Positions 8,145-9,585 of a DNA stretch of 17,675 bases are shown here, one piece after another (the first letter of the stretch is position 1; every line of letters begins with the position of its first letter). The notes under the pieces are model-generated. The model was given only the letters and a program-made list of their open reading frames with translations. It did no database searches and had not been told where the DNA came from. Source of the DNA: a virus (lineage: Duplodnaviria > Heunggongvirae > Uroviricota > Caudoviricetes); IMG/VR virus record IMGVR_UViG_2547132278_000012, positions 1-17,675 of that record. The stretch is one strand, 5' to 3'. A program made the translations under genes and the position numbers.

Positions 8145-8166
8145 GATAGGTATGTGCATACTTATC
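8145..8166. promoter_or_regulatory. Dyad GATAGGTA-N6-TACTTATC, centred about 53 bp upstream of the glutaredoxin ATG
   Basis: One of four copies of the same dyad. Same spacing to the start codon as the copy at 14649-14670. Followed on the minus strand by TTCTTTGTAAG. Confidence 0.45.
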
Positions 8167-8276
8167 TTTGCAGTCTGCATTATAAAGCTATTAAAGCCTC
8201 GATCAATCTATTAATTAAGGCATTGTTTGGTTAACATTAGCCTAATAATTTATAGTTAGTAGAGTGAAATACATAC

Positions 8277-9539
8277 ATGCCTTTTTTAATTTTCATTATT
8301 ATACTACTGCTCACCGTTATTTTTTGGGATTGGGTTGTTTTAAATGGTCAAACTGTTGGAACATTGGCTACAGCATTTGCTTTTATAGCAACAGCATGGA
8401 ATGCCTACGAAGCGAGAAAAAGTGCAAAAGCAGCTTTTTCAGCCCTTCAATTAACAACTGAATCATTGTTCGAAATGCGAAAGAGTGCATTTAAACAATG
8501 GTTTGATTCCTTATTAAATCAACATGATGCGTTATGTCTTCTTGCAAAACAAATTATCGATAAACACAAAATTAATTTAAACAGCGATGAGTTACATAGA
8601 CTCTATTACCCATTGGTAAAACAGCATGAGGTAATACAGTATGTGAAGCATATTATTAATATATTTGAGTATGTGGATAGTTCATTTTATATTGATGGGG
8701 AATGTCTCAAGGAAAAAAGAGCGTATGTGTCACAATTAATTTTTAAAATCCCACCTCAGATGAAGTTGATCATTGCTATCTTTGGATTAAAAATCGATTA
8801 TTGTGAACATATTAATTCGGAAAAACTGTGTTGTTTATTGAATAAATATGATTTTTTCAATGATGAAATATTTTTTGATGATGCTTATTCAAATATGCCT
8901 TATCTGGATACATTCATAAACCTTAGATTCAATAAAATATTCAAATCTCGAATGATAAATTATTTTGATAATATCATTAAAAGTTATTATGTTCCATCGG
9001 ACGTTAAAAGGGACTGGATGTTTCGACGCCCACAGCTCGTACCGTCGGTTCTTATGAATTATAAAACTCCTTGTTCTCCTATAATTAATGATTACTTTGA
9101 GAAGTTGCCTTTACATGTAAGAAACTACTTTGAGGAACAACTTAAAACCGCGAATGATAGAGTTACTCATTTTGACGTTTACATCCCACGCCTTATTGGT
9201 TGTTCAATCGTGCAACATTACGAAGATGTGCCTTCCGAAAAAAACAGGTTAAATGACAGGAATGATGTAATAGCTATGGCTGAAGATTACATCGAGAAAA
9301 GAAAATCTAATCAACTAGATTACATACTTGAAGATATATACTTCAAGAGTGACGAAGATATAATCCCAGGCCACCATTTGATTGTGGCATTTGATGACTA
9401 TGAATTTAAATTATCACTCATTAAGATAAATGAGAATAAAGATAGCGATAATCTTTTAAATCGAATTTATACTGAATCCAGTAGCATGGTTAAAGAATAT
9501 AAGCGCGAAATATTAAAACTGGGCGACTATGTAAAGTAA
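8277..9539 (+). CDS. AT-rich membrane-anchored protein of unknown function (two N-terminal hydrophobic helices, then about 370 aa soluble domain)
   Basis: 420-aa ORF; the only long plus-strand gene in this half. Markedly lower GC than its neighbours by eye. N-terminus FLIFIIILLLTVIFWDWVV then VGTLATAFAFIATAW. Has its own terminator. Confidence 0.7.
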   Translation: MPFLIFIIILLLTVIFWDWVVLNGQTVGTLATAFAFIATAWNAYEARKSAKAAFSALQLTTESLFEMRKSAFKQWFDSLLNQHDALCLLAKQIIDKHKINLNSDELHRLYYPLVKQHEVIQYVKHIINIFEYVDSSFYIDGECLKEKRAYVSQLIFKIPPQMKLIIAIFGLKIDYCEHINSEKLCCLLNKYDFFNDEIFFDDAYSNMPYLDTFINLRFNKIFKSRMINYFDNIIKSYYVPSDVKRDWMFRRPQLVPSVLMNYKTPCSPIINDYFEKLPLHVRNYFEEQLKTANDRVTHFDVYIPRLIGCSIVQHYEDVPSEKNRLNDRNDVIAMAEDYIEKRKSNQLDYILEDIYFKSDEDIIPGHHLIVAFDDYEFKLSLIKINENKDSDNLLNRIYTESSSMVKEYKREILKLGDYVK

Positions 9540-9554
9540 ATTGCACTGTTCAAC

Positions 9555-9585
9555 AAAAAAGGGGCCGAAGCCCCTTTGAATTTTG
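9555..9585. terminator. Bidirectional rho-independent terminator (AAAGGGGC-cgaa-GCCCCTTT)
   Basis: GC stem with tetraloop, A-run upstream and T-rich tract downstream. Closes the 420-aa gene on the plus strand and the tRNA transcript on the minus strand. Confidence 0.75.

What the first reader, a model, noticed from the sequence alone, without database searches (positions are those of the whole stretch)
8145..9585. AT-rich, membrane-anchored 420-aa gene sitting alone between the glutaredoxin gene and the tRNA cluster
This is the one long plus-strand gene in a minus-strand replication block. It is visibly more AT-rich than everything around it and has its own promoter region and terminator. Its two N-terminal transmembrane helices followed by a large soluble domain resemble the layout of phage abortive-infection or superinfection-exclusion proteins. 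A compositional island next to tRNA genes on a phage-plasmid is a typical place for acquired defence or exclusion cargo. I recognise no motif, so the function is open.
Basis: partly seen in the sequence, partly recalled or inferred. Interest (0 to 1): 0.6.

Follow-up and report, generated by a model that had tools for sequence, protein, structure and literature searches.

The report
Divergent AbiC-like defence gene cassette
The AT-rich 420-codon gene is real and is a very diverged, membrane-anchored relative of the AbiC/AbiP abortive-infection proteins, sitting in a swap-in/swap-out cargo slot of an SSU5-like phage-plasmid where sister elements carry other anti-phage genes; this makes it a likely but untested phage-defence gene that standard defence finders miss.

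Summary
ORF 8277-9539 (+, 420 aa) has 31.8% GC against 44.9% for the backbone and lies alone between grxA and a tRNA cluster of an SSU5-like E. coli phage-plasmid. Pfam, PADLOC and NCBIfam find nothing on the protein itself. Its profile links it to proteins that pass Pfam PF16872 (putAbiC): BLASTP E=2e-26 to one of them, and 62 of 86 sampled family members are PF16872-positive. Residues ~50-200 align with a lactococcal AbiC-like protein (hhalign 94-99% probability). The layout matches AbiC: an N-terminal TM hairpin, then a helical domain. No solved fold resembles the model.

The gene is the payload of a sharply bounded cassette (8115-9553). In sister plasmids with 98-99% identical flanks, the same slot holds alleles 86%, 55% or 34% identical, an AbiGi system, a nuclease-effector-like gene, or only Gp49. 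About one fifth of SSU5-type plasmids carry a family member. Distant members sit in a P2-like prophage moron site and in a toxin/defence island.

Verdict: a new, undetected member of a known kind (AbiC/P superfamily), probably anti-phage defence or exclusion. The mechanism is inferred, not shown.

The parts
8115..9553 (.). Variable cargo cassette: AT-rich upstream region plus the ORF. It is replaced as a unit in sister phage-plasmids.
   Evidence: blastn of window 6500-11500 against 8 relatives: homology ends at 8113/8114 and resumes at 9554-9557 in every relative that lacks this allele. GC is 31.6% against 44.9% for the backbone.
8277..9539 (+). CDS of 420 aa. A divergent member of the AbiC/AbiP (Pfam PF16872 putAbiC) superfamily.
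   Evidence: PHROG 18168 (unknown function), E=6e-217.
8280..8342 (+). Residues 2-22: strongly hydrophobic helix, predicted TM1.
   Evidence: Kyte-Doolittle 19-residue window mean up to 2.83. AlphaFold helices 2-15 and 17-22.
8346..8444 (+). Residues 24-56: predicted TM2 rich in small residues (TLATAFAFIATAW) plus the basic juxtamembrane stretch (NAYEARKSAKAA). This is the best-conserved part of the protein.
   Evidence: Residues 24-60 have 60% mean pairwise identity across 15 homologues, against 21-22% for the C-terminal half. Invariant columns T32 A35 A38 W41 A43 E45 A46 S49 A52 A56. R47/K48/K51 after TM2 suggest the soluble domain is cytoplasmic by the positive-inside rule; this is an inference.
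8628..8876 (+). Residues 118-200: the core that corresponds to the Pfam putAbiC domain (IQYVKHIINIFEYVD..FY..KRAYVSQL..LIIAIFGL..LLNKYDFF).
   Evidence: PF16872 maps to the aligned stretch in relatives. hhalign aligns window residues 119-172 with lactococcal residues 192-245 using alignment A1, and residues 50-199 using A2. 39-40% mean pairwise identity.
8877..9536 (+). Residues 201-420: hypervariable, clade-specific helical/small alpha-beta half. Proposed specificity or sensor module.
   Evidence: 21-22% mean pairwise identity in A2 and 12% in A3. Not covered by the match to the lactococcal protein. pLDDT is mostly 80-95.
8115..8276 (.). Cassette-borne AT-rich divergent control region between grxA (minus strand) and the AbiC-like gene (plus strand).
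   Evidence: GC is 0.27 for 8181-8276. The scan finds a minus-strand promoter TTGATC-16-TATAAT at 8206-8179 pointing to grxA and none on the + strand. A -10-like hexamer (TAACAT/TAATAT/TATCAT) is conserved about 40 nt before the ATG (my reading).
8147..8164 (.). Copy of an 18-bp palindrome (TAGGTA-N6-TACCTA type) that recurs in intergenic regions of the phage-plasmid. Its position fits the grxA leader rather than the target gene.
   Evidence: Conserved in all seven aligned alleles, including those from Klebsiella, Salmonella and Enterobacter. 3 copies in the window against 0.33 expected. 21 copies against ~5 expected in a complete relative.
9558..9577 (.). GC-rich stem-loop flanked by an A-run and a T-run: a bidirectional terminator shared with the convergent tRNA cluster. 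It is backbone, not cassette.
   Evidence: (61-nt fold -19.2 kcal/mol, z = -3.0).
7857..8102 (-). grxA (81 aa), the conserved left flank of the slot.
   Evidence: Pfam Glutaredoxin 8.7e-11. RefSeq annotates GrxA in relatives.
9732..10385 (-). tRNA-Ser(TGA), Thr(TGT), Tyr(GTA) and Asn(GTT) cluster, the conserved right flank.

Best explanation
The gene is a single-gene anti-phage (abortive-infection or exclusion) moron of the AbiC/AbiP superfamily. It is carried as an exchangeable cassette in a defence hotspot of SSU5-like phage-plasmids, between grxA and the tRNA cluster.

Proposed working:
1. The protein is made in the plasmid-carrying cell from a promoter in its own AT-rich upstream region.
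2. It inserts in the inner membrane through a two-helix N-terminal hairpin. The helical soluble domain faces the cytoplasm.
3. The conserved N-terminal half (TM2, the juxtamembrane stretch and the putAbiC core, residues ~24-200) is the common working module.
4. The hypervariable C-terminal half (201-420) sets which incoming phage is recognised.
5. On infection by a competing phage, the protein blocks a step of phage development. Lactococcal AbiC lowers capsid-protein production. AbiP binds RNA and stops the early-to-late switch and phage DNA replication. Alternatively the protein compromises the membrane. Either way the phage-plasmid's host population is protected.

Shown here: the gene is real and under purifying selection; the homology; the architecture; the cassette boundaries; allele and cargo swapping; the defence-type neighbours.

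Inferred: expression in the carrier state; topology; the division into working and sensor halves; any anti-phage activity; which step is hit.
For: Homology:
- The A1 profile reaches PF16872-positive proteins at E 1e-20 to 6e-35. PF16872 scores are 26-33 bits against a cut-off of 22.
- BLASTP of the window protein against P0012 gives E=2e-26 over 355 aa.
- The exhaustive HMM search finds 284 clusters, most 400-500 aa with the same N-terminal hydrophobic helices.
- 62/86 sampled members hit putAbiC, 8/86 PADLOC AbiC and 4/86 AbiP.
- hhalign to a lactococcal-seeded profile gives 93.8% probability (E=1.7e-7) with A1 and 99.4% (E=4.5e-21) with A2.
- NCBI names relatives 'putative phage abortive infection protein'.

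Architecture: AbiC has two TM helices, AbiP has one, and each has an extra-membrane helical domain with no fold-based functional assignment (PMC13064643). The model here (pLDDT 82) is the same kind and likewise has no PDB or BFVD neighbour.

Hotspot:
- The breakpoints are identical in all relatives.
- Alternative cargo is AbiGi plus a partner, a PDC-M68A/nuclease-effector-like gene, or Gp49 only.
- Alleles are 98, 86, 55 and 34% identical while int, lig and CobT stay at 98-99.5%. Allele dS is 0.2-2.0 against ~0.06 for the flanks. This points to replacement by old alleles, not in-situ drift.
- The gene is accessory: 137 records carry it against 638 with the core ligase.

Other contexts: a P2-like prophage between the tail-fibre assembly and sheath genes with a TIR gene nearby, and an island with SMEK, RelA_SpoT and HEPN-RES genes.

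Composition: family members are AT-poor islands... correction, AT-rich islands, everywhere examined.

Conservation gradient: 60% identity for TM2 plus juxtamembrane, 39% for the core, 21% for the C-terminal half.
Against: - No experiment exists on this clade.
- The protein itself fails Pfam PF16872, PADLOC AbiC/AbiP and NCBIfam.
- The direct HMM match of the lactococcal AbiC-like protein to the family is weak (9.5 bits, E=2.4e-5 in a single-target search).
- The similarity covers only about 150 residues.
- 'putAbiC' is itself a putative label, and a 38%-identical AbiC-like lactococcal gene gave no protection against the phages tested (PMC11381338).
- No catalytic motif is conserved. Only H83, Y122 and Y150 are conserved polar or aromatic positions.
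- No promoter was detected on the + strand by the scan. AT-rich cargo in enterobacteria is often silenced by H-NS (general knowledge).
- DefenseFinder screens of SSU5 phage-plasmids do not report this gene (bioRxiv 10.1101/2025.09.12.675607). That is expected for a divergent member, but it also means there is no independent support.
Confidence: 0.55

Rival explanations
1. Superinfection exclusion rather than abortive infection. The membrane protein blocks DNA entry, or an early envelope step, of related SSU5-like or other phages without killing the cell. The deep allele classes would correspond to exclusion specificities.
For: It is an inner-membrane-anchored single gene on a temperate element, expressed divergently from the early genes. 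Deep, old allele classes are exchanged at one slot, as expected under frequency-dependent selection. AbiC/AbiP act with a membrane anchor that is essential in AbiP (PMC13064643). Nothing in the data distinguishes cell death from exclusion.
Against: No similarity to any PHROG annotated as superinfection exclusion; the only strong PHROG hit has unknown function. The homologous family is named for Abi phenotypes that act after DNA entry: AbiC on capsid protein, AbiP on early transcripts and replication. By the positive-inside rule the large domain is predicted to be cytoplasmic, which fits sensing of intracellular phage products better than blocking injection. That topology is an inference.
Confidence: 0.2
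2. A non-defence moron: a membrane-anchored accessory protein that benefits the host or the element in another way, such as bacteriocin immunity, envelope stress, colonisation, or plasmid addiction through a toxic membrane protein.
For: The neighbouring int|grx slot in Klebsiella relatives carries a colicin-E1-family immunity gene and a YafO toxin, so not all cargo in this region is anti-phage. No functional motif is found in the protein. The gene is retained in 62-kb E. albertii plasmids of the same replicon type, which are much smaller than the usual ~110 kb.
Against: The gene is homologous to the putAbiC family. The same slot is occupied by AbiGi and by a nuclease-effector-like gene. Distant members lie in defence and toxin islands and in a prophage moron site. 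No partner gene that could act as an antitoxin is conserved next to it.
Confidence: 0.15
3. A decaying or silent passenger: recently acquired AT-rich DNA with no current function in this element.
For: Low GC, no detectable + strand promoter, and a host segment that is itself damaged by IS100 insertions.
Against: The 420-codon frame is intact, with chance probability ~6e-16. dN/dS is 0.22-0.34 over alleles diverged to saturation at synonymous sites. The 90% cluster has 301 member sequences. 26 plasmid records carry it at 95-99% identity, always full length. Homologues are AT-rich in every host and element examined, so low GC is a family trait and not a sign of recent arrival.
Confidence: 0.07

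Closest known systems
Lactococcus lactis AbiC (Prf, plasmid pTN20) and AbiC-like proteins (e.g. p275A WP_081144410.1); Pfam PF16872 putAbiC
   Same: Both are single-gene systems with two N-terminal TM helices followed by a helical domain that has no recognisable fold. The core motif is shared (S/Q-x-Y-x-[RK]...[IL]-L-[KE]-x-[IL]...F-Y...K-x-Y...[IL]-R/x...[LI]-I-A-I). hhalign gives 94-99% probability over window residues ~50-200. Both are AT-rich and carried on mobile elements.
   Different: The window protein fails PF16872 and the PADLOC AbiC model. It is 420 aa, against 338 aa for the lactococcal AbiC-like protein compared here (AbiC itself I recall as ~344 aa, which I did not check). Its C-terminal 220 residues have no counterpart. 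It is Gram-negative and borne on a phage-plasmid. The phenotype (lower capsid-protein production in AbiC) is unknown here.
Lactococcus lactis AbiP
   Same: AbiP is grouped with AbiC as AbiC/P on sequence and predicted structure (PMC13064643). 4 of 86 family members hit the PADLOC AbiP model. Its membrane anchor is essential for function.
   Different: AbiP has one TM helix and a nucleic-acid-binding domain. The soluble part of the window protein is slightly acidic overall (pI 6.2), and no RNA-binding motif was found.
Enterobacterial 'putative phage abortive infection protein' clade (e.g. Citrobacter P0013, Pectobacterium WP_113626518.1)
   Same: Full-length homologues of 420-470 aa with the same TM hairpin, core and long C-terminal half. 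P0013 is likewise a moron inside a temperate phage.
   Different: They are 22-27% identical to the window protein. They pass PF16872 while the window clade does not. None has been tested experimentally, as far as the literature searched shows.
Hotspots of anti-phage systems in temperate phages and satellites (P2 old/tin locus, P4 psu-int locus; Rousset et al. 2022, PMC9122126); P2 Z/fun moron site
   Same: Conserved flanks, many alternative cargoes that include known defence genes, and low GC.
   Different: This slot (grxA | cargo | tRNA cluster) lies in SSU5-like phage-plasmids. It is not described in the papers I could search.
AbiG (AbiGi/AbiGii) cassette of pLH09-a-C
   Same: It occupies exactly the same slot, in the same orientation, with similarly low GC (0.336).
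   Different: It is an unrelated two-gene system with no sequence similarity.

Membership tests
AbiC/AbiP superfamily (Pfam PF16872 putAbiC) | The protein itself matches PF16872 at or above the gathering score (22 bits) | tested here: not met
   No Pfam hit at E<=1. Slot alleles at 31-34% identity score 18-22 bits.
AbiC/AbiP superfamily (Pfam PF16872 putAbiC) | Significant full-length sequence homology to proteins that do pass PF16872 | tested here: met
   BLASTP E=2e-26 over 355 aa to P0012, which scores 32.7 bits on PF16872. The A1 profile gives E=6e-35. 62 of 86 sampled family members are PF16872-positive.
AbiC/AbiP superfamily (Pfam PF16872 putAbiC) | Profile-profile similarity to a lactococcal AbiC-like protein over the family core | tested here: met
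   hhalign of A1 against the lactococcal-seeded profile: 93.8% probability, E=1.7e-7, window residues 119-172. With A2: 99.4%, E=4.5e-21, residues 50-199. A single lactococcal sequence alone is weak. Caveat: the template profile includes members that were found with the A2 profile.
AbiC/AbiP superfamily (Pfam PF16872 putAbiC) | Match to the PADLOC AbiC or AbiP models | tested here: not met
   No PADLOC hit on the window protein at E<=1. 8 and 4 of 86 relatives hit AbiC and AbiP respectively.
AbiC/AbiP superfamily (Pfam PF16872 putAbiC) | One or two N-terminal transmembrane helices followed by a helical extra-membrane domain | tested here: met
   Hydropathy 2.83 for TM1 and 1.45 (marginal) for TM2. 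Both are helical in the model, which is almost all-helical, pLDDT 82. Relatives show the same two segments. No dedicated TM predictor was available.
AbiC/AbiP superfamily (Pfam PF16872 putAbiC) | Stand-alone gene with no conserved partner | tested here: met
   The gene is alone in the slot in all loci examined from Escherichia, Klebsiella, Salmonella and Enterobacter.
AbiC/AbiP superfamily (Pfam PF16872 putAbiC) | Structural superposition on the predicted AbiC/AbiP extra-membrane domain | not tested
   The AlphaFold-database library was not available. PDB and BFVD contain no relative.
AbiC/AbiP superfamily (Pfam PF16872 putAbiC) | Phage-resistance phenotype acting after adsorption (AbiC: reduced major capsid protein; AbiP: early transcript and replication block) | not testable with these tools
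   Needs cloning and phage challenge.
Defence-hotspot cargo of a temperate element (moron) | Variable occupancy between conserved flanks, with known defence genes among the alternatives | tested here: met
   Breakpoints at 8113/8114 and 9554 in 8 relatives. Alternatives are AbiGi (5.5e-47), a PDC-M68A/nuclease-effector-like gene (3.9e-25), other AbiC-like alleles, or Gp49 only.
Superinfection-exclusion proteins (P22 SieA, T4 Imm/Sp, lactococcal Sie2009 type) | Sequence similarity to a known Sie family | tested here: not met
   PHROGs gives only phrog_18168 (unknown function) and chance-level hits. Pfam gives none. A block of DNA entry cannot be tested here.
Abi_C / AbiJ HEPN RNases (a name trap, unrelated to AbiC) | Abi_C domain with the R-phi-x(3-5)-H HEPN motif | tested here: not met
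   No Pfam hit. The R..H of the family core (YMRxLYH) is K and N in the window protein. The SadR paper concerns a different domain.

The most novel reading that the evidence does not exclude
The AbiC-like proteins of SSU5-like phage-plasmids are one-protein sensor-effectors. A conserved small-residue TM hairpin is the killing or blocking device, acting by membrane depolarisation or pore formation on oligomerisation. The hypervariable cytoplasmic C-terminal half is a phage-protein receptor. The deep allele classes (98/86/55/34% identity on near-identical backbones) would then be specificity types kept by frequency-dependent selection. The grxA|tRNA slot would be an undescribed defence hotspot of a clinically widespread phage-plasmid group, invisible to DefenseFinder and PADLOC. 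If true, it would give the first mechanistic handle on the 30-year-old AbiC/AbiP family in a tractable E. coli system.
Probability: 0.2. Interest if true: 0.65.

Novelty: new member of a known kind. Interest (0 to 1): 0.4.

Why it matters
SSU5-like phage-plasmids are common in clinical E. coli, Klebsiella, Salmonella and Shigella. Surveys with standard defence finders report few or no defence systems in many of them.

This analysis shows that about a fifth of these plasmids carry a divergent AbiC-type gene that those tools miss. It also shows that the gene sits in a sharply bounded slot that exchanges Abi-type cargo. That gives three things:
- a concrete, cloneable candidate;
- a natural allelic series for specificity mapping;
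- an E. coli model for the AbiC/AbiP family, whose mechanism is still unknown.

It is not a new kind of system, and nothing here has been tested experimentally.

Tried and rejected
- Direct family scans of the protein against Pfam, PADLOC and NCBIfam found nothing. PHROGs gave only an unknown-function family.
- tblastn against 50,697 phage records found no match. The sequenced SSU5-like phages (SSU5, Cyrano, CMS-2020a, PhiR41_1) lack the gene, and SSU5 lacks the whole int-grx block.
- hhalign and hmmsearch against a single lactococcal AbiC-like sequence were weak. The link became significant only with a small profile on the lactococcal side.
- I considered a HEPN-like R-x3-H in the family core (YMRxLYH). 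I rejected it because the window clade has K and N at those positions.
- The 'Abi_C' literature (SadR, AbiJ) concerns a different domain.
- I considered that the conserved palindrome at 8147-8164 is an operator of the target gene. It is more likely a leader element of grxA, because genome-wide copies sit 1-64 nt before start codons and this one is 45 nt from grxA but 113 nt from the target ATG.
- I tried to locate the exact source through the IS100/dnaE junction. It is absent from 5,426 complete E. coli genomes and from PLSDB.
- Literature searches for PF16872/putAbiC and for AbiC in phage-plasmids found nothing relevant.
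Full report
**1. The observation**

The window carries an ATG-initiated ORF at 8277-9539 on the + strand, encoding 420 aa. Its GC is 0.318 and its GC3 is 0.290. Fifteen neighbouring genes have GC 0.41-0.50 and GC3 0.37-0.52. With the gene's own base composition, an open frame of 420 codons has probability about 6e-16. RefSeq annotates the same CDS in sister plasmids. Alleles evolve with dN/dS of 0.22-0.34. It is therefore a real protein-coding gene.

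The gene lies between grxA (7857-8102, minus strand; Pfam Glutaredoxin) and four minus-strand tRNA genes at 9732-10385. The backbone is an SSU5-like phage-plasmid of Escherichia, 96-99% identical to phage CMS-2020a, phage Cyrano and many ~110-kb plasmids.

- A 396-aa Sel1-repeat gene and a 128-aa HTH regulator are also on the + strand.
- The consensus scan finds no + strand promoter.
- The stem-loop at 9558-9577 is real, but it belongs to the conserved backbone and is shared with the convergent tRNA cluster.
- The phage-plasmid segment (367-16995) is bracketed by the end and the start of IS100 in the same orientation. These cut dnaE and the primase gene.

**2. The protein**

Residues 1-22 are strongly hydrophobic. 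Residues 24-42 (TLATAFAFIATAW) are moderately hydrophobic and rich in small residues. They are followed by a basic stretch, NAYEARKSAKAA.

AlphaFold2, run on a 15-sequence alignment, gives a confident, almost all-helical model (pLDDT 82, pTM 0.70). It has helices 2-15 and 17-22, a very long helix 24-95, and a few short strands near the C-terminus. By the positive-inside rule the soluble part should be cytoplasmic; this is an inference.

**3. What family it belongs to**

Pfam, PADLOC and NCBIfam give nothing on the protein itself. PHROGs gives only phrog_18168, of unknown function.

The first database search found seven clusters, all enterobacterial. A profile of the five closest sequences then reached proteins carrying Pfam PF16872 (putAbiC, 'putative phage abortive infection protein') at E=1e-20 to 6e-35. 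These score 26-33 bits against a cut-off of 22, and closer relatives score 18-22 bits over the aligned stretch. Pairwise BLASTP of the window protein against one PF16872-positive protein gives E=2e-26 over 355 residues.

An exhaustive HMM search found 284 clusters at E<=1e-3 and 64 at E<=1e-30. Most are 400-500 aa with one or two N-terminal hydrophobic helices. Of 86 sampled members:
- 62 hit PF16872;
- 8 hit the PADLOC AbiC model;
- 4 hit the PADLOC AbiP model.

NCBI names several members 'putative phage abortive infection protein'.

I retrieved a lactococcal AbiC-like protein from plasmid p275A. As a single sequence it matches only weakly. A small profile seeded with it aligns with the window's close subfamily at 93.8% probability (E=1.7e-7, residues 119-172). 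It aligns with the 15-sequence alignment at 99.4% (E=4.5e-21, residues 50-199).

The gene is therefore a remote member of the AbiC/AbiP superfamily over its N-terminal half. Residues 201-420 are specific to the enterobacterial clade.

A 2026 review describes AbiC as having two TM helices, AbiP as having one, and both as having a shared extra-membrane helical domain with no fold-based functional prediction (PMC13064643). According to the same review:
- AbiC lowers production of the phage major capsid protein;
- AbiP binds RNA and ssDNA and needs its membrane anchor;
- AbiP disturbs early-transcript shut-off and arrests phage DNA replication.

**4. The locus is a cargo slot**

blastn against eight relatives shows that homology stops at 8113/8114, eleven bases upstream of the grxA start codon. 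It resumes at 9554, just before the terminator hairpin. The cassette is thus 8115-9553, with 31.6% GC against 44.9% for the backbone.

Sister E. coli and E. albertii plasmids have integrase, ligase and CobT 98-99.5% identical to the window. In them the slot holds:
- the same allele at 98% identity (pEA11_2);
- an 86% allele (E. albertii 62-kb plasmids);
- a 55% allele (p20170902CC-1);
- a 34% allele of 432 aa, which just reaches the PF16872 cut-off (pAMPD01);
- AbiGi (PADLOC 5.5e-47) plus a 403-aa partner (pLH09-a-C);
- a 262-aa protein resembling PDC-M68A and CBASS/SduA-type nuclease effectors, plus a 184-aa gene (pHH107-1);
- only a Gp49-family gene co-oriented with grxA (phage Cyrano, NZ_CP062914.1).

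Synonymous divergence of the alleles is 0.2-2.0, against about 0.06 for the flanks. The alleles are therefore old lineages exchanged by recombination, not products of local fast evolution.

In Klebsiella, Salmonella and Enterobacter relatives, a 35-38% identical homologue sits at the equivalent place, after phoH-gp49-grxA. These homologues are again 12-13 GC points below their flanks.

The core ligase is found in 638 plasmid records, mostly at 80-99% identity. Any member of this family is found in only 137 records, at 24-98% identity. None is found in 50,697 phage records.

**5. Context of distant members**

A Citrobacter homologue (26% identical) lies between the tail-fibre assembly and tail-sheath genes of a P2-like prophage. 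From my own knowledge, this is the place of the P2 Z/fun moron. A TIR-domain gene lies elsewhere in the same prophage.

Another homologue lies in an island with SMEK, RelA_SpoT, HEPN-RES, a bacterial RNase A family gene and a CdiI-like gene.

All members examined are AT-rich relative to their surroundings, for example 0.344 against 0.536 in the P2-like prophage.

**6. Conservation pattern and proposed working**

Mean pairwise identity among 15 homologues is:
- 60% for residues 24-60 (TM2 plus juxtamembrane);
- 33-39% for residues 61-200;
- 21-22% for residues 201-420.

Across 86 members, the only nearly invariant polar or aromatic positions are H83, Y122 and Y150. The remaining nearly invariant positions are hydrophobic. 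No catalytic motif is apparent.

I therefore propose a membrane-anchored single-protein system. The conserved N-terminal half would be the common working module and the variable C-terminal half would determine specificity. The system would act against competing phages in cells that carry the phage-plasmid. Whether it aborts infection, as AbiC and AbiP do, or excludes phage without cell death cannot be told from sequence.

Confidence in a defence or exclusion role is about 0.75 when the first two explanations are combined. Confidence in the specific Abi-type mechanism is 0.55.

**7. Comparison and novelty**

The gene is a new, previously unrecognised member of a known kind, the AbiC/P superfamily. 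It lies in a hotspot of SSU5-like phage-plasmids that I did not find described in the literature I could search. A DefenseFinder survey of these elements does not list it.

It fails the direct Pfam and PADLOC tests, so I file it at superfamily level only. It is not AbiJ/Abi_C.

Interest is moderate. The finding is useful as a cloneable candidate and as an entry to the AbiC mechanism, but it is not surprising in kind.

**8. Side observations**

An 18-bp palindrome, close to TAGGTAAGT.ACTTACCTA, occurs three times in the window, always intergenic. It occurs 21 times in a complete relative, against about 5 expected, mostly 1-64 nt before start codons. The copy at 8147-8164 lies inside the cassette and is conserved in all alleles. 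Its position fits the grxA leader rather than the target gene.

Other observations are listed under Noticed in passing.

Noticed in passing
window 8147-8164, 11135-11152, 14651-14668; L025-L027 (NZ_CP031136.1): An 18-bp palindrome (TAGGTA-N6-TACCTA, full consensus about TAGGTAAGT.ACTTACCTA) recurs in intergenic regions. There are 3 copies in the window against 0.33 expected, and 21 in a complete sister plasmid against ~5 in shuffles (maximum 9). Copies usually lie 1-64 nt upstream of start codons (dam, parB, nrdA, grxA, orf137, orf258 and others). It could be an operator of a phage-plasmid regulator or a 5'-leader hairpin. I found no description of it.
   Followed up: partly
window 1-366 and 16996-17675: The window ends are the last 366 bp and the first 681 bp of IS100, in the same orientation. 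They truncate dnaE (557 of ~1170 aa left, ORF 307-1980) and the primase gene (128 of ~371 aa, ORF 16518-16904). The 16.6-kb phage-plasmid segment is therefore bracketed by IS100: a damaged or translocated fragment, or a small IS100-mediated circle. The junction is absent from 5,426 complete E. coli genomes and from PLSDB.
   Followed up: partly
window 14734-16526: The plus-strand Sel1-repeat gene (15336-16526, 396 aa) and orf137 (14734-15147) form a second variable slot between orf258 and the primase gene. They are present in some sister elements, absent in others, and replaced by a 350-aa gene in one (L018-L023). The Sel1 protein gives a weak PADLOC PtuA hit (2.3e-5).
   Followed up: partly
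window 7647-7856, and the equivalent int|grx interval in L001, L003, L005, L008: The interval between the integrase gene and grxA is a third variable slot. It is empty here. It holds a 184-aa gene in phage Cyrano, a 307-aa gene in pLH09-a-C, and a colicin-E1-family immunity gene plus a YafO toxin with a partner in Klebsiella and Enterobacter relatives.
   Followed up: no
window 9652-9671 / 9710-9729: A 20-bp inverted repeat (95% complementary, 38-nt loop) directly abuts the 3' end of tRNA-Ser(TGA) on the minus strand. It may be a processing or termination hairpin of the tRNA cluster. Rfam finds nothing there.
   Followed up: no
window 9819-10138: The tRNA cluster differs from that of phage Cyrano. 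The window has an extra tRNA-Tyr and a ~320-bp spacer between tRNA-Ser and tRNA-Thr, with a 23-nt direct repeat (9914/10044) and an inverted repeat (10055/10117). In Cyrano, Ser, Thr and Asn are contiguous. Rfam scores tRNA-Ser as tRNA-Sec at the threshold (47.3 against 47 bits), which is most likely only the long variable arm.
   Followed up: no
L007 (Salmonella phage SSU5, JQ965645): The type phage SSU5 lacks the whole block from the HTH regulator and integrase through grxA and the cargo slot. CobT is followed directly by tRNA-Asn.
   Followed up: no
L006 and seven similar E. albertii plasmids (62-64 kb): Plasmids of only 62-64 kb with the same replicon type (rep_cluster_488) keep this region and an 86%-identical allele of the gene. 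They may be reduced derivatives of the phage-plasmid that retained the cargo.
   Followed up: no
L014/L015 (Citrobacter P2-like prophage), 4653-5477 and 10001-11347: One P2-like prophage carries two AT-rich morons: a CAP12-PCTIR TIR-domain gene between tail genes S and V, and the AbiC-like gene between the tail-fibre assembly and sheath genes.
   Followed up: no
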